From Folioceros fuciformis (taxonomy: Eukaryota): a stretch of DNA of 52,280 bases. The translations under genes were made by a program, and so were the position numbers. The stretch covers positions 266,173-318,452 of the forward strand of contig JBNGIO010006314.1 of the NCBI GenBank assembly GCA_049999805.1, written 5' to 3'. Under the pieces are notes generated by a model. The model was not told where the DNA came from. It saw only the letters and a program-made list of their open reading frames with translations, and did not search any database. Position 1 is the first letter of the stretch. Every line of letters starts with the position of its first letter. This document shows positions 7,233 through 52,280 of this stretch, one piece after another.

Positions 7233-8231
7233 TGTTCCTCAAGCCTAAACCACGCTCCCAGAAGCTGGATCTGTCAGCGTGTGAATTGCCTACCAAATAA
7301 AACCTTGATGATCTGTCGTCCGAAAACTGAAACCGACTGCCCTTTAGGTGCCGACTTCAACCTACGTTTTGATTCTAAAAAAACACGGTATGCATAGGTA
7401 TTTCGATACCAAAGTGCTTCTCTATTTTCCGAATTTCTTGAATCTTAGTCTTCCAATTCTAGTCTTCTTTAGTGAAGGTCCTGATGCCTTCTGATGCATC
7501 ATGCGGACATGGACCTTCTCGCTGGCCGCTTGCATCGTCATGTCGTTCCAGGACCAAGTCGACGGAGGAGATGTACGAAATCCCAAAGCTTTGTGATTCC
7601 AACACCTGCTGTTTTGGAGCCACGCTCTGTGCTCACTTTTCCTCAGATTGGTCTTGGTTAGTTACGCCTGTTGGCCTAATATTCTGCGTCACATGAACCC
7701 GTTGTATTCCACATAGTGCTCTTGCACCCCTATGGACAAAGTCATGCCGCCACAGGGCTTCTGGGTTCTGGAGGTCCTCTACCCGAAGTGCGTTGACTTG
7801 TTGGACCAGAACATAGATGTGAATCGCCTGGAACGGAGGAGGGACGAGAGACGTTTAAATCGTATCATCTGGAAATTACTTTGGCCAGGATACGAAACAT
7901 CCAACGCCACGAGATCAAGATCTGGAGGACAAGCATATGCTTTCACCTGGGGCTCCAAGCAACCACCTCGGAGGAAGTGGAGAATGCGAAACGGGCACGG
8001 GACTTGGAGTTGCCCATTCAAACAACGGGAAAACGAGGAGGCAGCTGCAATTTTGAGTGCGCTCGACCAAGGATTCAATTCCGATGGACAAAGCTGTCCA
8101 GTCCAAAGGCGATGCGGGTCCAAGCTGCTCCGTTCAGTTCATGGGCTCGGGGCCTTCCCTGGGCGGAGGCAAGGCACAATCACGAACTAGATTGGCGTAT
8201 TCTGCTTCCGGGATTGCTCAACTCTTACGAA

Positions 8232-11200
8232 ATGGGGGTAACGGCTGACACTGTGAGAAAGCTATGTCATCTGAGCCAGCTAGCTGAGGCTGTGGAAGCT
8301 TTGGGAATTCTTGTGCAGAAGAACAGTTGGGGCTCCAAATCTGTCTTCTATGACGTGCTAAGGAGATGTGTTGTCGAAAAAGATATTGTTTTGGGTCGTC
8401 GAGTCCATGCTCTCACGCTGAAAAAGGGGTACGAGTCGGACACGTTCCTGTGCAACCACATTATCCGAATGTATGCTTCACATGGCAGTTTGCAAGACGC
8501 AATGTATGTGTTCACTCTGGTTGCCCAGCCAGATGCCTTCATGTGGTCGTCCATAATCTGTGCGCATGTTCAACATGGGCAAGGCAATCAGGCCATTAAA
8601 CTCTATCATCAGATGCGGGGTTCAGGGGTGAAGCCTGATGGCCATGTATACGTTGCAGCCATTCAGGCTTGCGCAAGGGTACCCGACTTGAAAACTGGCC
8701 AGCTGGTGCATGCTGATGTGTTGGCTTCTGGCCTTGACAGTAATCAGTTCGTCTGTAGTTGCCTGGTGGACATGTATGCCAAGTGTGGGAGCTTAGAGAG
8801 TGCCCAGGATGTGTTTGATAGACTTGGCCCCAAGAATGTGGTAATTTGGAATACTATGATTGCAGGGTATTCTCAGCATGGCAGAGGCCTGGAAGCCCTT
8901 CGTCTCTACAGTTCAATGGAAGAAGAAGGCATCGTTACACCAGACTGTGTGACATTTCTCTGCCTTTTGCAGGCATGTGCAAGTGTAGGCGCCCAAGGTT
9001 TGGAGAAGGGGAGGCAGTTTCATGTGCAAATCAGAGAACGAGGACATGAATCTGATGTGTCTCTAGCCAACAGTTTAGTAGACATGTATGCAAAGTGTGG
9101 GAGCTTGGAAGATGCTCGAATAGTGTTTGAGGCACTCGATACGAAAGATGTGGTGACATGGAATGCCATGATAGCAGGGTATTCCCAGCAGGGTATGGGA
9201 CAAGAAGCTCTTCATCTCTTCACTGTAATGCTAAAAGAAGGCTCCACTGTACCGAATTCGGTGACATATGCGTGCCTCCTGCAAGCATGTGCAAGTGTTG
9301 GGGCCCCAGCTTTGGACAAGGGGAAGCATCTCCATGCGCAAATTACAGAACGAGGGCACCAAGATGTGTTTGTATCTAACAGTTTGGTGAACATGTATGC
9401 AAAGTGTGGCAGCATGGAAGATGCACACAGAGTGTTTGACAGGCTTGTTCGTAAAAATGAGGTAACGTGGACGACTTTAATTGCAGGATATTCCCAGCGA
9501 GGCATGGGTCAGGAAGCCCTTTATCTGTACAGTGCTATGCAAGAGGCAGGCATGGCTGCACCCAATTCTGTTACATTTGTGTGTTTGCTGCAAGCATGTG
9601 CAAGTATCGGCACCCTGGCATTACAGAAAGGTAAGGAGCTTCATACACAAATTCGAGAACTGGGACACCATTCTGATCGCTTTGTAGGCAACAGTCTGGT
9701 GAACATGTATTTGCGGTGTGGCAGCTTGGTAGATGCTCAGAGAGTGTTCGACAGTATTGGCCAAAAAGATGTGGTTACGTGGAATGTCATGATAGCACAG
9801 TATTCCCAGCAGGGCATGGAGCAGGAAGCTCTTCATCTCTACAGTGCTATGCAAGAAGATGGGACTGCAGTGCCTGACTCCGTGACATTTGTGTGCCTTC
9901 TGCGGGCATGTGCAAATGTAGGCATTCCAGCCTTGGAGCAGGGAATGCAGATTCATTCACAAATTAGAGAACAAGGACATCAGACAGATATATTTGTAGC
10001 CAGCAGTTTGGTAAACATGTATGCAAAGTGCGGCAGCATAGATTATGCACGGATTGTCTTTGATGGACTCAGTCACAAGGATGAAGTGACATGGAATTCC
10101 ATGATAGCAGGCTATGCTCAGCAAGGCATGGGTCAGGATGCCCTTGATGTCTACAGTATCATGCTGAAGGAAAGCTCTGTTCGACCGAATTCCGTGACAT
10201 TTGTGTGCCTCCTGCAAGCTTGTGTGAGTGTAGGGATCCTGAGTTTGCAGACGGGAAAGGAGATTCATGCGCAAATTCGAGAACAAGGACATGAATGTAA
10301 TGGATTTGTGGCCAACAGTTTGATAAACATGTATGCAAAGTGTGGCAGCATAGAAGATGCACGTGGAGTGTTTGACAAACTGAGTCAAAAAGATGTGGTC
10401 ACGTGGAATGCCATGATTGCCGGGTATTCCCAGCAGGGCTTGGGTCGGGAGGCTCTTAGTGTGTACTGTGCTATGCAAGAAGATAGCATGGCTGTACCTG
10501 ATTCTATCACGTTTGTTTGCATTTTGCAGGCGTGTTCAATTCTAGGCAACCCAGCTTTGCAGACCGGGAAACAGCTGCACGCAGAAATTAAGGAGAGAGG
10601 GCTTCTAGGCAATGTATTTGTGACCAGCAGCTTGGTGAACATGTATGCAAAGTGTGGCAGCTTGGAGGACGCCATGAGGATATTTGATGGACTCAGTCAA
10701 AAAGATCTGGGAACATGGAATGCCATGATAGCAGGGTGTTCCCAGCAGGGCATGGGGCAAGAAGCGCTTCATATATACGGTGTCATGGAAGAAGGAGTTG
10801 TTATACCTGATTCTGTGACATTTTCGTGTCTTCTGCAGGCATGTGCAAGTGTAGGCACCTCAGCTCTAGAGAGGGGAAGGCAGATTCATAGGCAAATTAG
10901 AGAACATGGATATGAATATGATAGATTTGTATCTAATAGTTTGGTAAACATGTATGCAAAGTGTGGCAGCCTGGAGGATTCTCAGAGAGTATTTGAGAGG
11001 CTGGGTCAAAAAGATGAAGTGACCTGGACAGCGTTGATTGCAGGATATTCCAAGAGGGGCATGGCCCGGGAAGCCCTAAGTGTCTACCATGTTATGCAAG
11101 AGGATGGGCTGGCTGTGCCCGATTCTGTGACGTACGTGTGCCTCCTGCAGGCATGTGCAAGTGTGGGTAAGTCTGCTTTAGAGGAGGGAAAGCAGCTTCA

Positions 11201-12548
11201 TGCACAACTTAGAGAACGCGGACACCAAGCTGATGATGTATCCGTTGGCAGCAGCTTGGTGAACATGTATGCAAAGTGTGGCAGCCTACAGCATGCTCGA
11301 GGTGTGTTTGATGAATTTGTTCAAAAGGACGTGGTGATATGGAATGCCATGCTATCAGGGTATGCTCAGCAGGGACTGGGACAAGAAACCCTCCAGCTGT
11401 ACGATGTTATGCAACAGGATGGCACGACTGCACCTGATTCTCTAACTTTTGGGTGTCTCCTGCAAGCATGTGCGTGTGTAGGCACCCCAGCTTTGGAGAA
11501 GGGAAGGTGGCTTCATGGACACATTAGAAAACAAGGATATCAAGCTGATTCTTTTGTAGCCAATAGCGTGATAAACATGTATGTCAAGTGTGGCAGCCTA
11601 GAAGATGCTTCCAGAGTGTTTGGCAAACTTGATAAGAAAGACGTGGTGACCTGGAATACCATGATAGCAGGGTATTCCCAACAGGGCATGGGCCAGGAAG
11701 CCCTTCGCCTTTACGGTGCTATGCAAGGAGAAGGCACTATTCCACCTGATTGCATGACATTTGTGCACCTCCTGCATGCCTGTGCAAAAATGGCAGCTTT
11801 GCATGTGGGAAGGCAGCTACATGCAAAGATTGAAGAACAAGGGCTTCAAACTGACGTGTTTATCGGAGGCAGTTTGATAAACATGTATGGGAAGTCTGGG
11901 AGCATGGGGGATGCCCAGCAGGTGTTCAATGCACTGCCCGAACGAGACGTCGTGGCGTGGAGTGCACTGATTGCAGGCTACACCTGTCAAGGAGACGCTG
12001 ACCTGGTCTTCGACTTGGTCCAGAGAATGGACGAAGATGGAATAAAGCCAGTTAGCATTACATGCCTCAGTGTACTAACTGTGTGCAGTCATGCTGGTCT
12101 GGTGAACAAGGGAAGGAAGTATTTTGAGGCTATGGACCGACAGTACGGGATCACTCCCATGGTCGAGCATTACACATGCATGGTAGACCTTCTAGGCCGT
12201 GCTGGCCAATTGGATGAGGCACTGGCCTTGGTAAGGACAATGCGTGTACTGCCCCATGCAGCCATTTGGCATACTCTCTTGGGTGCTTGTCGAAAATGGA
12301 GCAATGTGGACGTCGGACGGAATGCTTTCAATGAAGCTGTCCACCTAGACCAGAAAGACGCTGCAGCATACGTGTTGATGGCTGACATATACACCGGTGC
12401 CCAGATGTGGAAGGAGGCAGAGGAGATGCAAGCAAGGAGAATAAGAATGAGGGCTTGGAAGCAACCAGGTCAGAGCTGGTGGACAGACATGGGCGGAGTA
12501 GTGCATAGTTTTCTGGTTGATGGGGACAATGTCCAAAGAGTCCAGTAA
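8232..12548 (+). CDS. PLS-class PPR protein (PPR1): 12 S-type motifs (~12 PLS triplets), E1/E2, truncated WW-type DYW start; putative organellar RNA-editing specificity factor
   Basis: Uninterrupted ORF, open from about 7800, with first ATG at 8232 (true start uncertain). Repeated NSLVNMYAKCGS/VTWNAMIAGY/VTFVCLLQACAS motifs; HYTCMVDLLGRAG; AAAYVLMADIY; C-terminus WKQPGQSWWTDMGGVVHSF then stop. Confidence 0.95.
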   Translation: MGVTADTVRKLCHLSQLAEAVEALGILVQKNSWGSKSVFYDVLRRCVVEKDIVLGRRVHALTLKKGYESDTFLCNHIIRMYASHGSLQDAMYVFTLVAQPDAFMWSSIICAHVQHGQGNQAIKLYHQMRGSGVKPDGHVYVAAIQACARVPDLKTGQLVHADVLASGLDSNQFVCSCLVDMYAKCGSLESAQDVFDRLGPKNVVIWNTMIAGYSQHGRGLEALRLYSSMEEEGIVTPDCVTFLCLLQACASVGAQGLEKGRQFHVQIRERGHESDVSLANSLVDMYAKCGSLEDARIVFEALDTKDVVTWNAMIAGYSQQGMGQEALHLFTVMLKEGSTVPNSVTYACLLQACASVGAPALDKGKHLHAQITERGHQDVFVSNSLVNMYAKCGSMEDAHRVFDRLVRKNEVTWTTLIAGYSQRGMGQEALYLYSAMQEAGMAAPNSVTFVCLLQACASIGTLALQKGKELHTQIRELGHHSDRFVGNSLVNMYLRCGSLVDAQRVFDSIGQKDVVTWNVMIAQYSQQGMEQEALHLYSAMQEDGTAVPDSVTFVCLLRACANVGIPALEQGMQIHSQIREQGHQTDIFVASSLVNMYAKCGSIDYARIVFDGLSHKDEVTWNSMIAGYAQQGMGQDALDVYSIMLKESSVRPNSVTFVCLLQACVSVGILSLQTGKEIHAQIREQGHECNGFVANSLINMYAKCGSIEDARGVFDKLSQKDVVTWNAMIAGYSQQGLGREALSVYCAMQEDSMAVPDSITFVCILQACSILGNPALQTGKQLHAEIKERGLLGNVFVTSSLVNMYAKCGSLEDAMRIFDGLSQKDLGTWNAMIAGCSQQGMGQEALHIYGVMEEGVVIPDSVTFSCLLQACASVGTSALERGRQIHRQIREHGYEYDRFVSNSLVNMYAKCGSLEDSQRVFERLGQKDEVTWTALIAGYSKRGMAREALSVYHVMQEDGLAVPDSVTYVCLLQACASVGKSALEEGKQLHAQLRERGHQADDVSVGSSLVNMYAKCGSLQHARGVFDEFVQKDVVIWNAMLSGYAQQGLGQETLQLYDVMQQDGTTAPDSLTFGCLLQACACVGTPALEKGRWLHGHIRKQGYQADSFVANSVINMYVKCGSLEDASRVFGKLDKKDVVTWNTMIAGYSQQGMGQEALRLYGAMQGEGTIPPDCMTFVHLLHACAKMAALHVGRQLHAKIEEQGLQTDVFIGGSLINMYGKSGSMGDAQQVFNALPERDVVAWSALIAGYTCQGDADLVFDLVQRMDEDGIKPVSITCLSVLTVCSHAGLVNKGRKYFEAMDRQYGITPMVEHYTCMVDLLGRAGQLDEALALVRTMRVLPHAAIWHTLLGACRKWSNVDVGRNAFNEAVHLDQKDAAAYVLMADIYTGAQMWKEAEEMQARRIRMRAWKQPGQSWWTDMGGVVHSFLVDGDNVQRVQ

Positions 12549-25463: not shown

Positions 25464-28400
25464 TCAACAGGATCGTGCACGATGGGACCCTAAACCCTGC
25501 ACCTCTTGCTGAATGGTTCCCAACATGATCTTAAGCGTGGCATATATTTGGATTCTGTCGGGGTGCTCTTTATCTTCCACCACGAAAGTGTGTACGTGGT
25601 TGTCAGCTTCCATCCATGTGAGTCCCAGGTCCCTTCTCGCACCTGCATTATGCATCATGCAATCTACTTGCTCAGCATCCTCCCACATTCCAGCTGCACT
25701 GTAGATATTTGACATCAAGACGTACGCAGCTGCATTCGTGGGATCCAGTTTTAAGATGGATTCGAAAGCATGTCGACCCAAGTCCCAGTTGCCATGGATT
25801 CGACAAGCTCCAAGCAAAGACATCCACACGACAATATCAGGTGTTGACGGCATAGTGTCAACCAGGCTATCTGCCTCACGCAGATGACCGGCACGGCCTA
25901 AGAGATCAACCATGCAAGCATAGTGCTTCGTCGCAGGAAGGATGTTAAAGCGCTCAAACATGGATTGGAATATCTGCTGTCCCTCCTCCAACAAGCCAGC
26001 ATGGCTGCAAGCGGAAAGCAAGGACACAAAAGTCACATCATTTGGCTCCATGCCTTCCCGTAGCATTCTCTGGAACAGTTGCAGTGCTTCTAGCCCGTAG
26101 CCATGCTGAGAGTACCCTGCGATGATTGTGTTCCAAGCAACAAGATTTCGCGATGGCAGTCTGTTGAACACTGCGTGCGCATCTACGAGGCTCCCACATT
26201 TGGCGTACATGTCAATAAGACTGCTGGCAACAAACACGTCTGAGAGATAGCCACATTCTACAACTTGTGCGTGGATCTGTTTGCCTTGCTGAAGAGCTGC
26301 TATGCTGGAACATGCTTTCAGCATGCTTACGAATGTAACATCATCGGGTTGCATGCCCACTTGCTGCATTTTCTCGGAAAGCTGCAATGCTTCCTGACCA
26401 CGGCCATGACGTGCGTAGCCTTTGATCAATGCAGTCCATGATACCAGATCCTTCACCTGCAAGTGGTCGAATACTTCACGTGCAGCATCAACGCTCCCGC
26501 ACTTGGCATACAAGTCTATGAGAGCATTTCCCACAACCAGAATTGACTCCCATCCATTTTCAATCACACGGGAATGAATCAACTTCCCCTGATCCAAGGC
26601 TGTCATCCTTGAACAAGCTTTCAGGATGCTGATCAGTGTCACCTCATCTGCATGCACGCCCTCCCATTCCATTCTCTTCCAAAGTTCCAGGGCTTCTTCA
26701 CTGTTCCCACAGTCTGCACATCCTGCAATCACTGCATTCCACGACACCAAATTCCTAGTTGGTAATTTCTCAAACACTCTCCGAGCATTAGCAAAGCTCC
26801 CACATTTCGCATACATGTCGATCAGGGTGCTGCAAACAAAAACATCAGAGTCAAAGCCACCTTCCATGATCTGCCCGTGAATGAGCTTGCCCTGGTCCAG
26901 CCTGGCTACCTGGGAACATGCTTGCAAAACGCTCACAAAGGTGAACTCATTTGGGGGCATGCGTTCCGAACACATATGCCTGAATATTTCGAGGGCCTCC
27001 TCACTATGCTGATGCTGGGCATACCCACATATCATTGCATTCCAGGATATCCGATCCTTTACTGGCAGTCTGTCAAACACTTTGCGGGCATCCACAAGGC
27101 TGCCAGTCTTGACGTACATGTCAAGGAGGGTGTTGCCAACAAACACATCGGATTCAAAACCACTTTGTATGATGCGGTCGTGACACAGTCGACCAACTGC
27201 CAGGTCAGATGTGCTGGAACATGCTTTCAAAATACTTAGATACGTCACTTTGTTTGGGGACATCCCATGCTGCTGCATCATATCAAAGAGTTGAAGGGCC
27301 TGCACTCCATCTCCATAGTGAGCATACGCACCAATTATGGCTGTCCATGACACCATATCCTTCGATGGTAAGCTATCAAAAACCAGGCGGGCATCCTCAA
27401 CGCTCCCGCATTTTGTGTACATATCAATAAGTGAGTTGCCAACCATAACATTTGAGACGAGTCCAATCTGCATGGCTTTCGTATGAATCACCCTGCCCTG
27501 ATCCAGGGCTGGTATACTGGAGCAGGCCTTAAGGATTCCAGTCAGTGTGACCTCATCCGGCTGCAGTCCCTCCTGTTGCATTTGCTGGAACAGATGAATT
27601 GCCTTGTGATGAAGCCCGTTTTGAGAGTGGCCAGCTATTATTGCATTCCAAGAAACCAGATCCCGACCCGGCAGTCTGTCAAACACGGATTGGGCATCCT
27701 GCAGGCTCCCGCATCTGGCATACATGTTAATAAGAGTGTTGCACACCTTTGTATCTGCTTCACAATCAAGCTCAACTATGCAAGCATGGACAAGCTTACC
27801 CTGATCGAGGGCCGCCAAGCTGGTGCATGCTTTGAGGACACTGAGGAGGGTGACCTTATTCGGAGGCAAGGACTCAAGTTGCATTCGCCTGAAGAGTTGG
27901 ATGGCTTCGTCCGATCTCTCATGCTTGGCATATGCAGCAATCATGGCACTCCATGACACTAGATCTCTCGTTGCGAGATGATCAAATACTTGGATTGCGT
28001 CCAGAATGCTTCCACACTTGGAGTACATGTCGATGAGTGTGCTAGCAATACCGGTATCCGAATCAAGCCCATACTTCGCTAGACAAGAATGGATCAGCCT
28101 TCCTTCTAACAAGGCATCACTGCAACAACATGCTTTCAGGATAGTCATGAAAGTCACTTTGTCTGGATGTGTGCCCTCCTGTTGCATCTTCTCTAAGAGC
28201 TGGAACGTGGATTGTACACGTCCATCCTGGGCGTAACCTGCGATCATGGCATTCCATGAAACCAGGTCTCTTGATGACAGATTATCAAAGACTCTCCGTG
28301 CGTCTTCAGTTCTCCCACATTTCGAATACATGTCAATAAGCGTGTTCCCCACAAACCCATTACACTGAAATCCACTCTGCTCGATTTCCTTGTGAATAAG

Positions 28401-28892
28401 CTTACCCTGTGCCAGTGCCTCACTGTTCGCACATGCCTTTAGGACGGCAACAAATACATGTTCATTTGGCTTCACACCAGAACGTAGCATTCGGTGATAC
28501 AGACTGATTGCCTCGTCAGCTTTGCCATACTTGGCATTCGCTGCAATAACTGCAGCCCACGTGAACAAACCTGGTGCAGCAAGCTTGCTGAACACTTCAT
28601 TCGCATCCAGCAGACCCCCGCACAACGCCAAGATGCGAATCAGGTGGCTGACGAGCAAGGTATTGGACTCAAACCCAGTCCTGACAATCAAGGAGGACAT
28701 TCTCCTACAGGCTGGCAAATCTCTACTGTGAATGCACCCTTGCAGGAGATGGTACAAGATGTCCTGCGAGACTTGAAATCCCTCCTGATGCATGAGTTCC
28801 ACGGCTCCAATGGCATGATTAACCCGTCCCTCCTCACAAAGTATCTCCAGCTCATGCACCGACAGAGGGAAGCCATTACTGCACCTCGCCAT
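25464..28892 (-). CDS. PLS-class PPR protein (PPR2): ~9 PLS triplets, E1/E2/E+, no complete DYW
   Basis: Single long ORF; likely ATG at 28892 (MARCSNGF). Repeated LIDMYxKCGS/VSWNAMIAGY motifs; HYACMVDLLGRAG; AAAYVLMSNIY; degenerate PG box DLGLTWME..VHTF...HP...IY. Confidence 0.95.
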   Translation of the reverse strand: MARCSNGFPLSVHELEILCEEGRVNHAIGAVELMHQEGFQVSQDILYHLLQGCIHSRDLPACRRMSSLIVRTGFESNTLLVSHLIRILALCGGLLDANEVFSKLAAPGLFTWAAVIAANAKYGKADEAISLYHRMLRSGVKPNEHVFVAVLKACANSEALAQGKLIHKEIEQSGFQCNGFVGNTLIDMYSKCGRTEDARRVFDNLSSRDLVSWNAMIAGYAQDGRVQSTFQLLEKMQQEGTHPDKVTFMTILKACCCSDALLEGRLIHSCLAKYGLDSDTGIASTLIDMYSKCGSILDAIQVFDHLATRDLVSWSAMIAAYAKHERSDEAIQLFRRMQLESLPPNKVTLLSVLKACTSLAALDQGKLVHACIVELDCEADTKVCNTLINMYARCGSLQDAQSVFDRLPGRDLVSWNAIIAGHSQNGLHHKAIHLFQQMQQEGLQPDEVTLTGILKACSSIPALDQGRVIHTKAMQIGLVSNVMVGNSLIDMYTKCGSVEDARLVFDSLPSKDMVSWTAIIGAYAHYGDGVQALQLFDMMQQHGMSPNKVTYLSILKACSSTSDLAVGRLCHDRIIQSGFESDVFVGNTLLDMYVKTGSLVDARKVFDRLPVKDRISWNAMICGYAQHQHSEEALEIFRHMCSERMPPNEFTFVSVLQACSQVARLDQGKLIHGQIMEGGFDSDVFVCSTLIDMYAKCGSFANARRVFEKLPTRNLVSWNAVIAGCADCGNSEEALELWKRMEWEGVHADEVTLISILKACSRMTALDQGKLIHSRVIENGWESILVVGNALIDLYAKCGSVDAAREVFDHLQVKDLVSWTALIKGYARHGRGQEALQLSEKMQQVGMQPDDVTFVSMLKACSSIAALQQGKQIHAQVVECGYLSDVFVASSLIDMYAKCGSLVDAHAVFNRLPSRNLVAWNTIIAGYSQHGYGLEALQLFQRMLREGMEPNDVTFVSLLSACSHAGLLEEGQQIFQSMFERFNILPATKHYACMVDLLGRAGHLREADSLVDTMPSTPDIVVWMSLLGACRIHGNWDLGRHAFESILKLDPTNAAAYVLMSNIYSAAGMWEDAEQVDCMMHNAGARRDLGLTWMEADNHVHTFVVEDKEHPDRIQIYATLKIMLGTIQQEVQGLGSHRARSC

Positions 28893-29263
28893 ATGAAAGT
28901 GTTGTATCGCAGTTGCCTCGTCTGCACGTCGCAACCTCGGAAAAGGTCATCCCAAGAACACCAATTTTCAGTACCCACCAAAACAGAAAAAACAGAGGGG
29001 AATTCGAGAGCTTGCCTGCCTTCGTGCCGCCTCGTGTTCCATGTTCTCTGCTTCGAACTCCGCCCTCAACACCACCGCCATCCGACACCCCAGTACCGCA
29101 CACACCCCTGACGGCTCGCTGAACGAAAACATCAGCTGGGTTCCACCTACGGTTGCATCTACCTGTCCTGCTGAATCTTCCAGCCTTCTCGAACACCACC
29201 AAAGTTACTCCCCTTCCCACTCCCATTTCATTTGCTTGTTGGTCTTCGAAGAACGTAACGTCA

Positions 29264-30658
29264 ATGTTGGGTAGGATAGTTGGCAGGGCCTGGAGGGAAG
29301 CGGAGCCGGTGCTTCAAGGACCCGGATGGCGGGCTCTGCAGCTACGCCATTTCGCCAAGCGGGTTATACCTCGCGGGCCGCATGTCTGGCTCAAGATGGA
29401 TCGGGAGAAGTGGCAGAAAGATTTGCAATTGGACGCGGTCTGGGACAAGGAGAAGGAGCTCATATATTTGATTGCCATGAAGGACATTCTGGCAGACCAA
29501 CCCAAGATGCGCATGTCTTTGAAAGTTCTGACCACCTACAAGAGGTACATCGGTCTGTCAGGGAGGAACATTCGACCTGCTGCATGGCTGCAACAGCACC
29601 CTGCAATGTTCCTGGTTGACGAGGACATGCCCTTCCTGGAATACCTGCCTGCGGCTGCAAAGGCATTCTTCCAGTTCACCCCTCGCGCTGCAGAGCATGT
29701 AGCTAGCGAGAAGCAGTTTCGCCACGACAATGAGAAGCTTCTGGTTGACAAGGTGAGGAAGGTTCTCATGATGACACCTGAGAGGCGGATCCCTCTTGAG
29801 GTGTTCGGCCACTTGCGGAAAGACATCGGCATGACTGAGGATTTCAGATTCCGGCTGATGAAATATCCTGAGTACTTCGGAATGGAGGAAACAGCTAAAG
29901 GATCAGAACTGAGGCTCACGGAATGGGACCCTGAATTAGCAGTGTCATCGTTCGAAACGCTCCATCTTGCAGGGAATGGCATTCCTGAGGATGGAGATCC
30001 CCAGCCCCAGGGTGGTGCCAACTGGTCAACATTCAGGCACAGGGCCAATCTGAAGAAGACTCATATGAGGGAGTTGATGAAGTTCCATGAAGCTCCCTAC
30101 GTGTCCCCATACCAGGAGACACCTCTGGATGTGAAGGAGAACTCCCTAGAGGCGGAAAAACATGCGGTGGCGGTGCTGCATGAGTTGCTGAGCCTGACTT
30201 TGCGGAAGAGGTTGAATTTGGCCCGTCTGGCACAGTACAGGACCATGTTCATGTGCACCAAAGGAACCAGATCCGTCATTATGCAACATCCTGAACTGTT
30301 TTACATATCGTTGAAGAATGGCCGGGAGACTGTGTTTCTACGGCAAGCTTACAGTAACTCTGAGTTGGTAATGAAGGACCCTTTTCTCGAAGCTCAGTCA
30401 TGGGTAGCTGTTTTGCTGAAGGAATCCAAGGATGCTATTCGGGAAGAGAAGGACCGGGTCATAGCGGAGAGAAGGAAAGCGAAGCTGGAGAGGGAAGAGG
30501 CCAAGGCAAATGCAAGTGCTGCAATGGCGCAGAGAGGGGATGAGCCGGAAGAGGTGGAAAGTGAATGGGATTTCTCTGATGTTGAAGACGTGGAAGTCCA
30601 GACGATCATCAAGGTTTGTACTGCTTCGCATCACGCATGCTCCACTCTTCATTGTTGA
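29264..30658 (+). CDS. PORR-domain (plant organelle RNA recognition, WTF1-like) protein PORR1
   Basis: Presequence-like start MLGRIVGRAW; KVRKVLMM...RIPL...HLRKDIGMTEDF...KYPEYF; WDPELAVS; PYVSPY; EKHAVAVLHELLSLT; HPELFYIS..GRETVFLRQAY. The extreme C-terminus may be spliced (possible GT at about 30614, AG at 30720). Confidence 0.92.
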   Translation: MLGRIVGRAWREAEPVLQGPGWRALQLRHFAKRVIPRGPHVWLKMDREKWQKDLQLDAVWDKEKELIYLIAMKDILADQPKMRMSLKVLTTYKRYIGLSGRNIRPAAWLQQHPAMFLVDEDMPFLEYLPAAAKAFFQFTPRAAEHVASEKQFRHDNEKLLVDKVRKVLMMTPERRIPLEVFGHLRKDIGMTEDFRFRLMKYPEYFGMEETAKGSELRLTEWDPELAVSSFETLHLAGNGIPEDGDPQPQGGANWSTFRHRANLKKTHMRELMKFHEAPYVSPYQETPLDVKENSLEAEKHAVAVLHELLSLTLRKRLNLARLAQYRTMFMCTKGTRSVIMQHPELFYISLKNGRETVFLRQAYSNSELVMKDPFLEAQSWVAVLLKESKDAIREEKDRVIAERRKAKLEREEAKANASAAMAQRGDEPEEVESEWDFSDVEDVEVQTIIKVCTASHHACSTLHC

Positions 30659-31853: not shown

Positions 31854-33387
31854 ATGGCCGGCCCCGGCCCCGCACNNNNNNNNNNNNNNNNNNNNNNNNN
31901 NNNNNNNNNNNNNNNNNNNNNNNNNNNNNNNNNNNNNNNNNNNNNNNNNNNNNNNNNNNNNNNNNNNNNNNNNNNGATCGCGACCAGCAGCGGGTGAAGG
32001 GAATCCTGGCCCGCGTGGCCGCGCCGTCGTTGGCGGCATCGGAGGCCGCCGGCGGATTCCAAGGCCGCGTCGTGTCCGGCCTCCCCAGCGGCAGCGGCGA
32101 GTACTTCGTCACTCTGGGGATCGGCTCCCCGCCCGTCCAGACTTCGCTGGCGATCGACACCGGAAGCGACCTGCTCTGGCTGCAATGCTCGCCTTGCCAG
32201 GTGAAGCAAATCATCCAACACACGTACCCTTCGGGCTCGGCCGGACAATGCAACTTCTTTCCCACCCGCCGTGGTTCGCCGCTTTGATGATTTCATGGTT
32301 CACGAGATCGTTTGACGCCACAGTGCCCCCTCACCTCAGGATTGCTACAACCAAGACGGCCCGATATTCGAGCCCCGGCGATCCACCTCGTATCGCACCC
32401 TCGGGTGCGGGAGTCCGCAGTGCCTGCTCTTGGACGAGCACGGCTGCTCGGGCACGTCGTGTCTCTACGAGGTGGACTACGGGGACGGGAGCTTCACAGT
32501 GGGAGACCTCGCCACCGACACGCTCATACTCGCGCCCCAGGCGGGCAGGCAATTCTCGGTCCCCAACGTGGCGCTGGGATGCGGGCACGACAACCAGGGC
32601 CTCTTCGCGGGCGCGTCGGGCTTGCTGGGCCTCGGCCGGGGCGCGCTCTCCTTCCCGTCCCAGCTTCGATCCACCTTGGGCCCCGTCTTCTCCTACTGCC
32701 TGGTGGATCGCGACAGCGCCTCCTCCAGCTCCCTCTCCTTCGGCCACTCCGCTATCCCGCAAGGTATTCCACCCGCTACTAACCCTCATCAATCCTGCAT
32801 AACTATGTGACCACCTGACCAACCAAACTAACTAGCTCCGCGCTCCGATCCGCCATGACTTCGCAGGGACGCTCTTCACGCCCCTCCTCACCAACCCCAG
32901 GGCGAGGACGTTCTACTTCGTCGGCCTGGAAGGCATCAGCGTCGGCGGGGCGGCGGCGGCTATCCCGGCGGAAGAATTCGCGATCGGGCCGTCGGGGGCG
33001 GGAGGCGTGGTGCTGGACTCCGGGACGTCCATCACCCGCCTCACTGCGGTGGCCTACAACGCCACACGCGACCTGTTCGTGAGCAAGGCCGCGCCCTACC
33101 TCGGCCAGCCGGCCGCCTCCTTCGCCATTTTCGATACGTGCTTCGACCTGTCGCAGCGGCGGAGCGTGCAGGTGCCCGAGCTCAGCCTGCGCTTCCATGG
33201 AGGCCTGGAATTGCCGCTCCCGCCTAGGAACTACATGCTGCAGGTGGATGCCTCGGGAACCGTCTGCCTCGCTCTCGCCCCGAGCCCCGGCCCGCTCTCC
33301 ATCATCGGCAACATCCAGCAGATGGGAACCCGAATTGTGTACGATGCCGCGGGCGGACGCATCGGCTTCGCGCGCAACCAGTGCTAG
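31854..33387 (+). CDS. A1-family aspartic protease (nepenthesin/ASPG1-like), at least 3 exons; N-terminus lies in the assembly gap
   Basis: GSGEYFVTLGIGSP...IDTGSDLLWLQC; YGDGSFTVG; GCGHDNQGLF.GASGLLGLGRG; second catalytic VLDSGT; FDTCFD; SIIGNIQQ...RIGFARNQC*. Start at 31854 is tentative. Confidence 0.9.
31876..31975. other. Assembly gap (100 N)
   Basis: Run of exactly 100 N, probably an unsized scaffold gap in GC-rich sequence. Confidence 1.
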
Positions 33388-42596: not shown

Positions 42597-44027
42597 ATGA
42601 AGTGTTGCAGGTCGAGATTTGCAGGATTGCTGAGATCGACAGGATGGAGGGTTGCGCAGGTGCAAGTGCGGGGTTACTCACAGAAGAGGCACAAGCCCAC
42701 ACTGATGGGTCCCATGGAGTGGATCAAGGCTGACAGGCAGAGGTGGCGGCCAGACCAGTCGTTCGACGCAGTGATCAAGAGGGAAGAGGAGCTGGACCAC
42801 CTCTTATTCATGAAGGACATTCTGGCCAACACACCTGGGATGCAGATGGGTCTGCAGTACTTGAGGATCCACAGATGGGACATAGGTTTGATGGGCAACA
42901 GTGCCTCAGCCTGGTTGGGTAGATACCCTACCATGTTTCAGGTAGGGGGGTATACTGGAATATCTTGCGGTTGGCTGGGCAAATACCCTACCATCTTCCA
43001 GGTAGGGAGGCATGCTGTAGTGCTGCCCAGGTGGTTTGTGTGGGTGGCTACCTTTTTGAGTGTGTGTATGCTGCTGCTGTGTGTGTAGGTGAATCAGAAG
43101 GAGTCTCCTGCGGCGTGGTTTGAGTTCACTCCGGAGGCTAGGGAGCAGGTGGCAAGGGAGAAGCAGTTTTGGATCGAGAATGAGGGCCTGCTGGTAAACA
43201 AGGTGCGGAAGCTGCTCATGATGGCACCTGGTAGGCGCCTGTCTCTGGATGTCATTGGGCATTTGAAGAAGCCAATTGGCCTGCCTGAGGATTTCAGGAC
43301 CAGGCTTGTGCACAAGCATCCTGAGTTCTTCAAGGTTGTTGAGGAGGGTGGTGAGACTCTGGAGCTCACGCATTGGGACCCGGAATTGGCTGTGAATTCC
43401 TTCTATGAGATGACCCTGGCTAGAGCAGCACCTGCAAGCAAGGATGGGAGGGATCAAAAGCCTAAGGATTGGATGCACTGGATGTCCTTTGATAAGAAGA
43501 AGAGCAACCTGAATAGGAAACAGGTCCTGGGCATTGTCAAATTCCACCAGGCTCCATTTGTGTCTCCATACGATGAGAAAGCACAGGACCTGGATCCACA
43601 ATCTGTGGAAGCCGAGAGGCATGCGGTGGCTGTGCTGTACGAGCTGCTCAGCCTGACTTTGCGGAAAAGGATTCTGGTGGATCGCTTGTCTCATTTCAGA
43701 AAAATCTCGCGCCACTACAAGTCGACTAGGTCACTTTGTATCCAACATCCTGAGCTCTTCTATATTTCGCTGAAGAGATTGCGGGAGACGGCTTTCCTTA
43801 AGGAGGCTTACAGGAACTCCCAGCTCATCGTGGAGGACCCTTTCCTATCAGCCCAAGCGTGGGTTAGGACATTCATGGAAGACGGAAGGAAGTTCGTGCA
43901 ACCTAGAGTTAAAAAGAAGAAGAAAGTAGAAGTAGTCATCCCTGAAGGCGAGGGGGGAACTGAAGATGCCGAGTCCGAGGAGGACGGTGATGACGGTCCT
44001 TTTGACAAGGATGCTTATGCAATCTAG
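42597..44027 (+). CDS. PORR-domain protein PORR2 (exons 42597-42941, 43089-44027)
   Basis: Paralog of PORR1: KVRKLLMM...HLKKPIGLPEDF...HPEFF; WDPELAV; PFVSPY; ERHAVAVLYELLSLT; HPELFYIS. Arg-rich presequence-like N-terminus; 147-nt GT-AG intron. Confidence 0.9.
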
Positions 44028-44383
44028 AGTCATAGTCTTAGCTTCCATTGCAGGCAGCTTTCTACAGCGTCTCATTACGAACGGCTCCCAGGTAAACCCA
44101 CGACCTTCAATCCTGGTACACCTGGTGTGGCTTTTGTACTTCTTCCTGTATGTAGAATATGCTTCAATGGGATGTTTCCTGTGCCATCGTGCCGAGCAAC
44201 TAACACCTGAACCCCCATGTTAAACCTCCGATCTCCAAGTTCCGTGAACCAGCAAGGCACTGCTTCTCACCATGATGTTGCACAACAACCGAAGTTCACG
44301 GCTCTATTTCTCTGGAAGGAAACAGCAATTATGCTTTGTGCTCCAAAAACGGGAATGTGCGATCCATTGGCCACTGATATGTT

Positions 44384-47300
44384 TCACATGGATCTTAAAT
44401 ATGTCACTTGCGGATCAGAATTGCTAATTACACGATGCAAGCTATCCAGCGATGCGTAGATGTCCTTTCTGTCGGAGTGGTGCATGTCCTCTGCAGCAAA
44501 ATTGTGCACTTGATTATTGATCTCAATCCAAGTACGGCCAGGTTCCTTTTGCAGACCCATCTTCTGCATTATTTCTCTGGTTTCTGCCATGTCTTCCAAC
44601 CTACCGGCTGCAGCGTATATGTTTGACATCAGAACGTACGCTGCTGACCGTCGGGGGTCGAGTTCCAACAGGGATTCGAAGGCACGCCTTCCTAGCTCCA
44701 CATTACAGTGTTTACGGCAAGCTCCAAGCAAGGATAGCCAAACAACTGCATCCGGTTCGCAAGGCATGGTGTTGATCAGGTCCACTGCTTCTTGGAGTGA
44801 CCCAGCTCGGCCGAGAAGGTCGACCATGCAGGCATAGTGATCCATGCCAGGCCTTACGTCATGTTCTTCAAACATGGATCTGAATAGTCGGTCTCCCTCA
44901 TGCAGTAACCCAGCGCGGCTACAAGCAGAGAGCAGAGATACAAAAGTTGCATCATCCGGCTCCATACCTGCCCGAAGCATCTGCTCAAAAGTGTGCAGAG
45001 CTTCTGGTCCTCTGCCATGCTGAGCATATCCATTGATCATAGCATTCCATGTTGCTTGGCTTTTGGTTTTCAATCTGTCAAAGACCTCCCGAGCCTCGTG
45101 GACGCTCCCACTTTTAGCATACATGTCTATTAGGGTGTTCCCCACAAACTCATCTGCGTCCAAACCATGTTCCCGGGCGTGGCCATGTAACAATCTGCCT
45201 TGATCTAAGGACACTAAACTCGAACAGGCTTTCAGAATGCTAACAAAAGTCACACGGTCTGGCTGTATGCCCTCTTTCAGCATCCTCTGGAACAATTTGA
45301 CCGCCTGCTGACCGTCACCATGACGGACATACCCCGTGAGGAGTGATGTCCACGACACCAGATCTCTGGTTGCTAGCTTGTCAAAAACTTGACGAGCGTC
45401 CCCAAGGTAACCACATCTCGCATAGAAGTCAACCAAGCTGTTGCCAACCACTAAGTTGTTCTCCAGGCCACTGGCAATGATGAGTGCATGAATAGCCTTG
45501 ACCTGATCCAGAGCTGCACTGACTGAGAGAGCTTTCAGGATGATAACGAAAGATACCTCATCCGGTTGCATCCCGTGCTGTTGCAGACTTTGGAAAATCT
45601 GAAGTGCTTGGTATGTATCTCCATTCTGGGCATATCCTGCGATCATAGCATTCCATGACACCATGTTCTTCATGGGAAGTCCATCAAACACTCGTCTTGC
45701 GTCTGCAACCCTGCCACACTTGGAATACATGTCGATGAGGGTGCTGCCGACGAATAGATCTGACTGTAAGCCTCCTTCACTGACAATGCTGTGGATAACC
45801 TTGCCTTGATCCAGTGCGCCTGTGCCTGCACAAGCCTTCAAGATGCTGACAAAGGTCACTACGTCTGGCTCAACACCCATCTGTTGCATGCTATTGAATA
45901 ATTGCAGGGCTTCGTCACCATGTTCATGCTGGGCATATGAGCTTATCATTGTATTCCACAATACAAGGTCTCGTGCTGGACAGTTATCAAAAACTCTACG
46001 AGCCTCACCCAGACTCCCACATCTAGCATACATGCTGATGACAGAGCTAGCGACCTTCACATCTGCTTCAAACCCACTTTCCTTGATCTTGGCATGCAAA
46101 AGCTTGCCTTCATTCAAAGCTGCAGGGCTTGAAAACGCTTGCAGAACACTGAGATAAGTAACTTTATTTGGAGTCATGCCATGCTGCTCCATTTTGCAAA
46201 ACAGGTGTACAGCCTCTGCAGCATTGCCATGATGTGAATATCCTGCAATTATCGCAGTCCATGACACCAAGTCCTTTTCTGCTAATTTGTTGAACACTTT
46301 GCGCGCCTCCTTTAGATCCCCTGCTTTAGCATACATGTCAATGAGGGCACTGCCAACAAACATATTGGCCTCCAGCCCAATCTCCTTGGCATGGCCATGA
46401 ATGAGTATCCCCTCTTTAAGTGCTCCTACTGAGGCACAGGCTTTAAGGACTGCAGCAAATACATAGTCATTTGGTCTACTGCCTGACTCTTGCATCTTGA
46501 AATACAGCTCAATAGCCCTCCCACTTTGCCCATGCTTAGCATTTGCGGAGATGATTGCAGCCCATACAAATGCATCTGGTGTAAGAAGTCTGCTGAATAC
46601 TGTGTTTGCTTCCGCCAGACAGCCGAATGAAGCAAACATTCGAATAAGATGGTTGCCCAAAAAGACATTTGCCTCCAAACGACACTGGGATATCAGAGCA
46701 TAAACTTCCCTGCCACCTGCCAGGTCTTTTCTGTCAGTACATTGCTGCAGAAGAAGGTGTAACAGATTGGTAGGGATCTTCATCCCAGACTGGTGTAGAG
46801 CATTAAATTCATGGAGAGCATGTTTCACACGTCCCTCCTGACACAGCTTGCAGAGCCTTCCAAAGGACACCAGGGACGCGACTTCCCTGGATTCCCCTTC
46901 GCTTCCCTCGCTGCATGCAAAATATCGAGATTAATTCCAAGGAAGATAACAATGCATGCTAGAAGATCACCAAAACCAGACACTGTGAAAGCTGACTCCA
47001 GCATACCACCTGCTGTTTCTCATTTCTCGACGTGTAGTGTGTACCCCGGCCTGCACTGCCTGCACGGGCTTCGGTGCAGTAGAGTCTGGATGATATGCAG
47101 TCAATGCTTCAATCCTAGCATCTACCCAAGGAGGGTTGAGCTCACTGTCAATCCACAAAGCCTCCTCCGTTATCTTGTGCACAAAATCTGGGGACTTCTT
47201 TCTTCTCTGTAACACCCAGACATCTGTAACATCCAACTATTTGTAATGCACAGCGATGCTACAGCTAGCTCAACCCACATTCACACCACTTGATAAACAA

Positions 47301-47710
47301 TCACGATAGCAGTCACTGGAATGACGTACTTTGCTGAGCCTGTTGTCAGACCACTGTTTAGGATCTTCAAAGAACTTCCGCCATAACTTGGCCAACTTGG
47401 ATCCACTCGTCTCATCTGCCCCACCGAGGCGTTAGAGACATCTGGAAAGCGGTGCAGTCCGATAAAATGACGACCCAAGCTTACCTTCTCTTCTCCCGCT
47501 CCTGGTGCCATTCTCGCGAGTCCGTAGACCCTGAGATGCAATTTTCCCACTTAATAATCTCCTGCAGTGATCCAGCGGAAACGCCCAAGAGAGGCAGAAT
47601 TTCCGCACACCCCATGCTGCTTCGGGAATTGCCGACGCTCCCCTGCATTCCACGGCTGATGCCTGGCCCGGCCCAACAAGACTCCTCCCCAGAGCTGCAG
47701 CTCGTTTCAT
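44384..47710 (-). CDS. PLS-class PPR protein (PPR3; ~6 PLS triplets, E1/E2/E+) with spliced N-terminal presequence and OSB-type PDF motif; exons 47710-47485, 47415-47330, 47206-47010 (or -47007), 46910-44384
   Basis: The 828-aa PPR ORF has no ATG at its 5' end and is preceded by a TTTTGCATGCAG acceptor. Three upstream exons join in frame (phases 1, 0, 2) to give about 1011 aa, including LWRKFFEDPKQWSDNRLSK|RRKKSPDFVHKITEEALWIDSELNPPWV. Confidence 0.85.
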
Positions 47711-47830
47711 CGCTGCTACCCATCCCCTAGCGAAATCAACCGGATGGTTTAAGCCGTCCTCTCAGTCCGACTCTGGTCCAACTGAATTAAGCTTATTTTT
47801 CTGACGGGTCGTTTCACACGGGGCAGCAGC

Positions 47831-47847
47831 TCTCCCGCTTTCCCGCC
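47831..47847 (+). promoter_or_regulatory. Tandem E2F-binding motifs (TCTCCCGC + TTTCCCGCC) in the PPR3/MCM2 divergent promoter
   Basis: Canonical TTTCCCGC at 47839-47846 directly preceded by the variant TCTCCCGC. MCM genes are established E2F targets. Confidence 0.65.
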
Positions 47848-48001
47848 ATTTCTTTGCTCCTCCCACATCGGTGGTGCTGCGCTTCCTCTGTGAGGGGAGC
47901 TTGGTCCCCGTGTTGCTGATGGAGCTATGGAGGCAATTACTGGTATCTGAGGAGCTGCATTAGGCGAGCAGCAGCAGACCGACTTGCGTTCTGGAACAGT
48001 C

Positions 48002-52280
<4,279 letters not shown>

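What the first reader, a model, noticed from the sequence alone, without database searches (positions are those of the whole stretch)
46910..47710. OSB-type PDF ssDNA-binding motif fused to the N-terminus of a PLS-class PPR protein
Seen: three small exons absent from the ORF track splice in frame onto the PPR3 ORF. The GT-AG introns are 47484-47416 (with a CTCTAAC branch-like site), 47329-47207 and 47009-46911. The exons encode an Arg/Ala-rich presequence and then LWRKFFEDPKQWSDNRLSK-RRKKSPDFVHKITEEALWIDSELNPPWV. Established: this matches the PDF motif of plant OSB proteins (consensus like LWxxFFxNPxxWWDNRxxKxNPKxPDFKHKxTGEALWL...PxWV), which binds ssDNA in organelles. PLS-E+ PPRs are RNA-editing specificity factors and normally carry only a targeting peptide in front of the array. 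Inference: the hybrid could tether an editing factor to nucleoid ssDNA or R-loops, coupling editing to transcription, or the PDF motif could act as a generic single-strand binding aid. I know of no characterised PDF-PPR fusion but cannot exclude unannotated homologs in seed-free plants.
Basis: partly seen in the sequence, partly recalled or inferred. Interest (0 to 1): 0.88.

Follow-up and report, generated by a model that had tools for sequence, protein, structure and literature searches.

The report
OSB-type PDF motif on PPR protein
A plant gene joins a short motif known from organelle single-stranded-DNA-binding proteins to the front of an RNA-editing-type repeat protein, and the same combination, which I could not find described in print, is common in some seed-free plants.

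Summary
Exons 47710-47485, 47415-47330 and 47206-47010 splice in frame onto the PPR exon 46910-44384, giving 1011 aa. Spliced contigs of public runs show the joins. A run identical to the window shows introns 1 and 3 removed. A relative at about 92% identity shows all three removed in one contig.

Residues 81-133 are a true PDF motif. They score 71.5 bits against a profile built only from OSB-named or SSB-bearing proteins, against at most 12.9 bits for 2000 shuffles. All 11 invariant positions are kept.

The fusion is not unique to this gene:
- 19 of the 120 nearest PPR proteins carry N-terminal PDF copies, from a lycophyte, a liverwort and JGI records.
- 71 of the 120 best PDF hits are PPR proteins.
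- 12 of 150 listed representative clusters are PDF+PPR.

Eight literature searches and a 2026 OSB family survey gave no description of it.

The C-terminus has an E motif only; no E+ or DYW was detected. The mechanism is inferred: a non-specific hold on single-stranded nucleic acid beside the PPR array. One caveat is an alternative acceptor that adds 17 nt, shifts the frame, and dominates in two relatives.

The parts
47485..47710 (-). Exon 1: the first in-frame ATG (47710) and a 75-residue stretch that looks like an organelle presequence (11 Arg, 11 Ala, net charge +9)
   Evidence: joined to exon 2 in contigs of X1, X2 and X7; no Pfam family. Targeting is inferred from composition only.
47416..47484 (-). 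Intron 1, 69 nt, GT..AG
   Evidence: skipped in contigs of X1, X2 and X7 (table 5)
47330..47415 (-). Exon 2: first half of the PDF motif (motif starts at 47401)
   Evidence: OSB-only profile positions 5-31, 29.4 bits, in the six-frame scan; contigs
47207..47329 (-). Intron 2, 123 nt, GT..AG, phase 0, splitting the PDF motif near profile position 30. An alternative acceptor AG at 47225-47224 adds 17 nt and shifts the frame, with a stop at codon 122.
   Evidence: The canonical join is seen in an X2 contig. The +17 form is seen in a minor X1 contig and in the main X3 and X7 contigs (tables 5c and 8).
47010..47206 (-). Exon 3: second half of the PDF motif (to 47120), then a linker of about 40 residues
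   Evidence: OSB-only profile positions 29-58, 34.5 bits; joined to exon 4 in X1 and X2 contigs
46911..47009 (-). Intron 3, 99 nt, GT..AG
   Evidence: skipped in X1 and X2 contigs
44384..46910 (-). Exon 4: PLS-type PPR array, E motif (44522-44710), a 45-residue tail and the stop codon
   Evidence: Pfam PPR_2 350.5 bits, PPR 297.3 bits, E_motif 70.3-71.6 bits against a cutoff of 27.3; no E+ or DYW at E<=10

Best explanation
The locus is one four-exon nuclear gene of a land plant. It encodes, in order, a presequence-like N-terminus, one OSB-type PDF motif (residues 81-133), a linker of about 40 residues, and a PLS-class PPR array ending in an E motif without a deaminase domain. It belongs to a widespread group of PPR proteins that carry one to three PDF motifs in front of the array.

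Shown here: the gene model, the identity of the motif, and the spread of the architecture.

Inferred: the PPR array reads a specific organellar RNA site, as in E-type editing factors. The PDF motif adds a hold on single-stranded nucleic acid that does not depend on sequence. Because PPR arrays bind RNA in parallel (established knowledge, recalled), the N-terminal PDF would sit 5' of the PPR footprint. There it could raise affinity or keep the site unfolded. I put the 'what it is' part at about 0.9 and the RNA-helper mechanism at about 0.4; the confidence of 0.5 given for this explanation is for the two together.
For: - Gene model: in-frame splicing and spliced contigs.
- Motif identity: 71.5 bits against the OSB-only profile, shuffles at most 12.9. 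11 of 11 invariant and 5 of 7 near-invariant positions are kept. A profile made only from PPR-borne copies retrieves 13 proteins named OSB1 or OSB3 and 9 with PF00436 among its best 120.
- Spread: 19 of the 120 nearest PPRs have PDF, including 16 of 31 from Diphasiastrum and 1 from Calypogeia. 71 of the 120 best PDF hits are PPRs, some with DYW. 12 of 150 representative clusters are PDF+PPR, always with PDF at the N-terminal end.
- Common origin: 115 of 119 PPR-borne copies fall in one clade of 132, and the window's copy lies inside it.
- Conservation: in X2 the PDF exons differ less (3 of 85 and 9 of 198 letters) than exon 1 (22 of 201) or exon 4 (194 of 2507).
- Fold: the motif folds as a compact unit, pLDDT 93.8.
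- Biochemistry: the review PMC6963530 (passages read) states that the PDF motif of AtOSB1 is sufficient for ssDNA binding.
Against: - No binding, localisation or editing data exist for any PDF-PPR protein.
- The canonical exon 2-3 join is not among the listed X1 pieces. In X3 and X7 the main contigs carry the +17-nt frameshifting form, so the full-length protein may be a minor product there.
- In X3 the part of exon 3 that is covered differs as much as the PPR exon does (15 of 137 against 204 of 2470).
- The only published PDF activity I saw is on ssDNA, not RNA.
- The start codon is inferred. An out-of-frame ATG lies 13 nt upstream.
- Some nodes of the motif tree have low support.
Confidence: 0.5

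Rival explanations
1. The PDF motif tethers the PPR protein to single-stranded DNA in the nucleoid (replication or transcription bubbles, R-loops). RNA processing or editing would then happen at the site of transcription.
For: The only activity reported for a PDF motif is ssDNA binding (PMC6963530, passages). The window's motif keeps all 11 invariant positions shared with OSB copies.
Against: Nothing here separates DNA from RNA as the ligand. The motif sits next to an RNA-binding array on a flexible linker. PPR-borne copies form their own clade, so they may have diverged in ligand preference.
Confidence: 0.25
2. The PDF motif in PPR proteins works mainly as a protein-protein contact. It could recruit OSB, RecA-type or editosome partners, or drive self-association, rather than bind nucleic acid.
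For: Some PDF-PPR proteins carry two or three copies, as modular interaction motifs often do. AtOSB2 is reported to be a tetramer (PMC6963530, passages).
Against: No evidence for such contacts. The conserved Trp, Phe, Lys and Arg positions are those typical of stacking and charge contacts with single strands (inference).
Confidence: 0.1
3. In this lineage the PDF exons are a decaying or regulatory appendage. Most transcripts use the +17 acceptor and end inside the motif, so little or no full-length PDF-PPR protein is made.
For: The +17 form is the main contig in X3 and X7 and is present in X1. It gives a stop at codon 122. The window's motif departs from two near-invariant positions, W to S and K to V.
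Against: X2 carries the fully in-frame form in one contig. All invariant positions are intact. The same V variant occurs in three related short proteins, so it is a lineage trait and not decay. No PPR-only start codon exists before residue 164.
Confidence: 0.1

Closest known systems
[quoted passage not shown]
   Same: They carry the same PDF motif of about 50 residues. The window's copy scores 71.5 bits on a profile built only from OSB-named or SSB-bearing proteins and keeps all 11 invariant positions. Both have a presequence-like N-terminus.
   Different: OSBs have an N-terminal SSB-like OB fold, with the PDF copies at the C-terminal end. Here there is no OB fold, the PDF is N-terminal, and a PPR array follows it.
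PLS-class, E-subclass PPR proteins (site-recognition factors of organellar C-to-U RNA editing)
   Same: Long PPR array and E motif, with no deaminase domain. The nearest relatives are PLS PPRs of lycophytes, ferns and gymnosperms at 35-48% identity.
   Different: This one has a PDF motif and three extra small exons.
Unnamed PDF-PPR proteins in public protein sets (for example P0022, P0016, P0012 of Diphasiastrum complanatum; P0100 of Calypogeia fissa; P0183 of Adiantum capillus-veneris)
   Same: Same order of parts: one to three N-terminal PDF motifs, then a PLS array with E or E-DYW ends. The window's motif lies in the same clade.
   Different: Only 35-48% identity in the PPR part. The window's motif has the V variant after PDF and S in place of the second W. 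It shares these with three short proteins, P0330, P0335 and P0357. Those public entries are labelled hypothetical or plain PPR proteins, and I found no study of them.

Membership tests
PDF motif (as in OSB proteins) | Significant match to a profile of PDF motifs taken from OSB proteins only | tested here: met
   71.5 bits for the 60-residue segment and 63.7 bits as a domain in the full protein. 2000 shuffles scored at most 12.9 bits.
PDF motif (as in OSB proteins) | The conserved Pro-Asp-Phe signature and the other invariant positions | tested here: met
   11 of 11 invariant and 5 of 7 near-invariant columns of a 30-copy alignment are kept.
PDF motif (as in OSB proteins) | Binds single-stranded DNA | not testable with these tools
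   Known for AtOSB1 only from a review (PMC6963530, passages).
OSB protein family | N-terminal SSB-like OB-fold domain | tested here: not met
   No Pfam family in exons 1-3 at E<=1. The rest of the protein is PPR. It is not an OSB protein.
OSB protein family | One or more PDF motifs C-terminal to the OB fold | tested here: not met
   There is a single PDF motif, N-terminal, at residues 81-133 of 1011.
PLS-class PPR, E subclass | Tandem PPR motifs | tested here: met
   PPR_2 350.5 bits in 9 stretches and PPR 297.3 bits in 13 stretches.
PLS-class PPR, E subclass | C-terminal E motif | tested here: met
   PF20431 scores 70.3-71.6 bits against a cutoff of 27.3 and covers the full profile 1-63.
PLS-class PPR, E+ or DYW subclass | E+ motif (PF20430) or DYW deaminase domain (PF14432) | tested here: not met
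   Neither is listed at E<=10 for the last 150 residues. Only 45 residues follow the E motif.
PLS-class PPR, E subclass | Specifies an organellar RNA editing site | not testable with these tools
   No organelle genome or transcriptome of this organism is at hand (no genome held).
PDF-PPR architecture (unnamed group found here) | PDF motif or motifs N-terminal to a PLS PPR array in one protein | tested here: met
   Spliced product backed by contigs. The same order is found in 12 of 12 PDF+PPR representatives.

The most novel reading that the evidence does not exclude
PDF-PPR proteins are an old subfamily of organellar RNA-editing or processing factors of seed-free land plants that I could not find described. 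It appears to have arisen once by fusion of an OSB-type motif to a PLS array. In it, the PDF motif gives the PPR protein a second, sequence-independent hold on single-stranded nucleic acid. This may link RNA editing physically to the nucleoid or to nascent transcripts.
Probability: 0.35. Interest if true: 0.75.

Novelty: new variant of a known kind. Interest (0 to 1): 0.6.

Why it matters
PPR editing factors are thought to find their sites through the repeat array alone, with helpers acting in trans. A built-in motif of the kind that lets OSB proteins bind single strands would be a new accessory module for this very large family. It is also common: 71 of the 120 best PDF hits are PPR proteins.

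It gives a direct experiment, the same PPR with and without the motif. It bears on how lineages with very many editing sites reach efficient site capture. It may also be useful for designer PPR tools. Finally, it shows that surveys of OSB genes and of PPR genes have each missed the overlap. The 2026 OSB survey does not mention PPR at all.

Tried and rejected
- A search with the exon 3 peptide for longer proteins found nothing at E<=0.01. The window's variant shares too few exact words, so this says nothing about absence.
- No whole genome is held for the window, so paralogues in the same genome could not be counted.
- No run is on record as RNA. RNA origin of X1, X2, X3 and X7 is inferred from five GT..AG joints on two genes.
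- Neither the window's own protein nor a close orthologue is in the protein collection; the best identity is 48%.
- No solved structure matches the motif by sequence; the best hit is E 0.94, a lectin. None matches by fold: Foldseek best E 8.7, VIA-align best Z 2.8. This does not show that the fold is new.
- Gutmann et al. 2020, recalled as the main survey of PPR editing factors, is not held. Paper supplements are closed. Either could mention the architecture.
- A separate gene for the PDF exons was rejected because of the joined contigs.
- A second PDF copy elsewhere in the window, or on the two other PPR-E ORFs, was rejected by the six-frame scan.
- Intron position could not be compared with OSB genes because no plant genomic loci are available.

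Full report
**1. The observation**

On the minus strand, four exons give one open frame of 1011 codons: 47710-47485, 47415-47330, 47206-47010 and 46910-44384. The three introns are 69, 123 and 99 nt long, and all are GT..AG. Keeping any one of them brings an early stop, at codon 92, 123 or 183.

Pfam finds nothing in exons 1-3. In exon 4 it finds a long PPR array plus the E motif. On the last 150 residues it finds the E motif at 71.6 bits, but no E+ and no DYW at E<=10. The first 75 residues are rich in Arg and Ala (11 each) with net charge +9. That fits an organelle presequence, but it is composition only.

**2. Transcript evidence**

No run is on record as RNA. However, the contigs of four runs laid on 43800-48700 carry five GT..AG joints on two oppositely oriented genes, so they derive from RNA.

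- **X1.** It has 0 differences from the window. One contig covers 43800-46910, jumps to 47010 and ends exactly at 47206. Another covers 47330-47415 and jumps to 47485.
- **X2.** This is a relative: 194 differences in 2507 letters of exon 4. One contig joins 46910|47010, 47207|47331 and 47415|47485, which is the whole model.
- **X1, canonical exon 2-3 join.** It is not among the listed X1 pieces. Many rows's tables were not shown (30 further joints, 352 further pieces).
- **The +17 form.** A 76-nt X1 contig (depth 6.6) and the main contigs of X3 and X7 run 17 nt further into intron 2, from an AG at 47225-47224. That form shifts the frame and stops at codon 122, inside the motif.

So there are two acceptors. 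How much full-length message is made in this organism remains open.

**3. Is it a PDF motif?**

The nearest PPR proteins in the large protein collection are only 35-48% identical. A local search with the spliced 60-residue segment hit 20 of those 120 at E<1e-4, each with one to three N-terminal copies.

I aligned one copy from each of 12 such proteins (A1). That profile, built only from PPR-borne copies, found 897 proteins at E<=1e-3. Its best 120 include 13 that their sources name OSB1 or OSB3, and 9 with the SSB family PF00436.

I then built a profile only from 60 copies taken from those OSB-named or SSB-bearing proteins. The results were:

- The window's segment scores 71.5 bits. As a domain in the full protein it scores 63.7 bits, at residues 81-133.
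- 2000 shuffles of the segment reach at most 12.9 bits.
- All 11 invariant columns of a 30-copy alignment are kept, and 5 of 7 near-invariant ones. The two departures are S for the second W, and V for K after P-D-F.
- In a six-frame scan of the whole window, only exons 2 and 3 match. They match as two halves meeting near profile position 30.

**4. How common is the fusion?**

- **Nearest PPRs.** By the OSB-only profile, 19 of the 120 nearest PPR proteins carry PDF. By my count of the names printed, these are 16 of 31 from Diphasiastrum complanatum, the one from Calypogeia fissa, and two JGI records. None of 18 from Ginkgo and none of 8 from Cryptomeria carry it.
- **Best PDF hits.** Of the 120 best PDF hits, 71 are PPR proteins, some with DYW domains. 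One is from Adiantum.
- **Full profile search.** A search of 1.84 billion representatives with no word index found 1202 proteins at E<=1e-3, 492 at E<=1e-10 and 50 at E<=1e-30. Of the 150 listed, 12 have both PDF and PPR, always with PDF at the N-terminal end.
- **Tree of 526 copies.** 115 of 119 PPR-borne copies fall in one clade of 132. The window's copy lies inside it, grouped (support 0.90) with three short proteins of 124-153 residues that share its V variant. These look like truncated calls of the same kind of gene. Several deeper nodes have low support, so a single origin is likely but not shown.

**5. Structure**

The motif is predicted with high confidence (pLDDT 93.8) as a helix, three short strands and a terminal helix. 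It has no sequence match in the PDB and no convincing fold match: Foldseek best E 8.7, VIA-align best Z 2.8.

**6. Mechanism**

Shown: the order of parts. Everything else in this section is inferred.

A review states that the PDF motif of AtOSB1 is sufficient for ssDNA binding (PMC6963530, passages read). PLS-E PPR proteins are site-recognition factors of organellar editing, and PPR arrays bind RNA in parallel (both recalled). An N-terminal PDF on a linker of about 40 residues would therefore lie 5' of the footprint.

I favour a non-specific single-strand clamp that helps RNA capture (about 0.4). A protein-contact role and an unproductive appendage follow at about 0.1 each.

In X2 the PDF exons differ less than the others: 3 of 85 and 9 of 198 letters, against 22 of 201 in exon 1 and 194 of 2507 in exon 4. 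In X3 this is not so: 15 of 137 against 204 of 2470.

**7. Comparison and novelty**

This is not an OSB protein, because it has no OB fold and the motif is at the other end. It is a PLS-E PPR protein with an extra module.

The architecture is present in public protein sets, where the entries are labelled hypothetical or plain PPR proteins. Eight full-text searches found no paper linking PDF with PPR. A 2026 survey of 182 OSB genes has no occurrence of 'PPR' or 'pentatricopeptide' (PMC13393729, passages). Gutmann et al. 2020 and all supplements could not be read. I therefore rate it a new variant of a known kind and not a unique hybrid. Interest is 0.6.

**8. Limits**

- The organism is unknown to me and no genome is held.
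- The taxa of most PDF-PPR representatives could not be looked up.
- The start codon is inferred. An out-of-frame ATG lies 13 nt upstream.

Noticed in passing
window 47207-47225 (minus strand): An alternative 3' splice site 17 nt upstream of the canonical acceptor of intron 2. It is used in a minor X1 contig and in the main contigs of two relatives (X3, X7). It shifts the frame and stops at codon 122, inside the PDF motif. This may be regulated unproductive splicing.
   Followed up: partly
window 47723-47721 (minus strand): An out-of-frame ATG lies 13 nt upstream of the proposed start codon. It opens a frame that stays open to the end of exon 1 (ORF 47726-47481). By my reading of the spliced sequence, not by a call, this frame ends just inside exon 2. 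It could lower translation of the main frame if the transcript starts upstream of it.
   Followed up: no
window 47485-48700: The PPR gene lies head to head with a plus-strand gene whose exons match MCM2_N (PF12619, 48557-48781). That gene has plus-strand introns at 48004-48240 and 48449-48556. One X1 contig runs without a break from PPR exon 1 to 48003, so the two 5' ends overlap or abut. In the relatives they are separate contigs.
   Followed up: partly
window 43089-44400: A PORR-domain gene (PF11955, plus strand) lies tail to tail with the PPR gene. One X1 contig spans both, so their 3' ends overlap or nearly touch.
   Followed up: no
window 7797-12548 (+), 25464-28946 (-), 29123-30658 (+): There are two more long PPR-E ORFs and a second PORR-domain ORF in the window. 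Neither PPR ORF has a PDF match nearby, so only one of three PPR-E genes here carries the motif.
   Followed up: partly
window 31876-31975: A run of 100 N, which is an assembly gap.
   Followed up: no
proteins P0121, P0122, P0209: Some proteins carry many PDF stretches: 13 in a 1160-residue Kingdonia protein and 11 in a 908-residue JGI protein. A Coptis entry joins PDF copies to a kinesin motor, which is possibly a merged gene model.
   Followed up: no
proteins P0349, P0356, P0073, P0100: In this group (P0100 is from a liverwort; the taxa of the other three are unknown) the PDF motif is followed within about 15 residues by the first PPR motif. The window's protein has a linker of about 40 residues. 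The tether length therefore differs between lineages.
   Followed up: no
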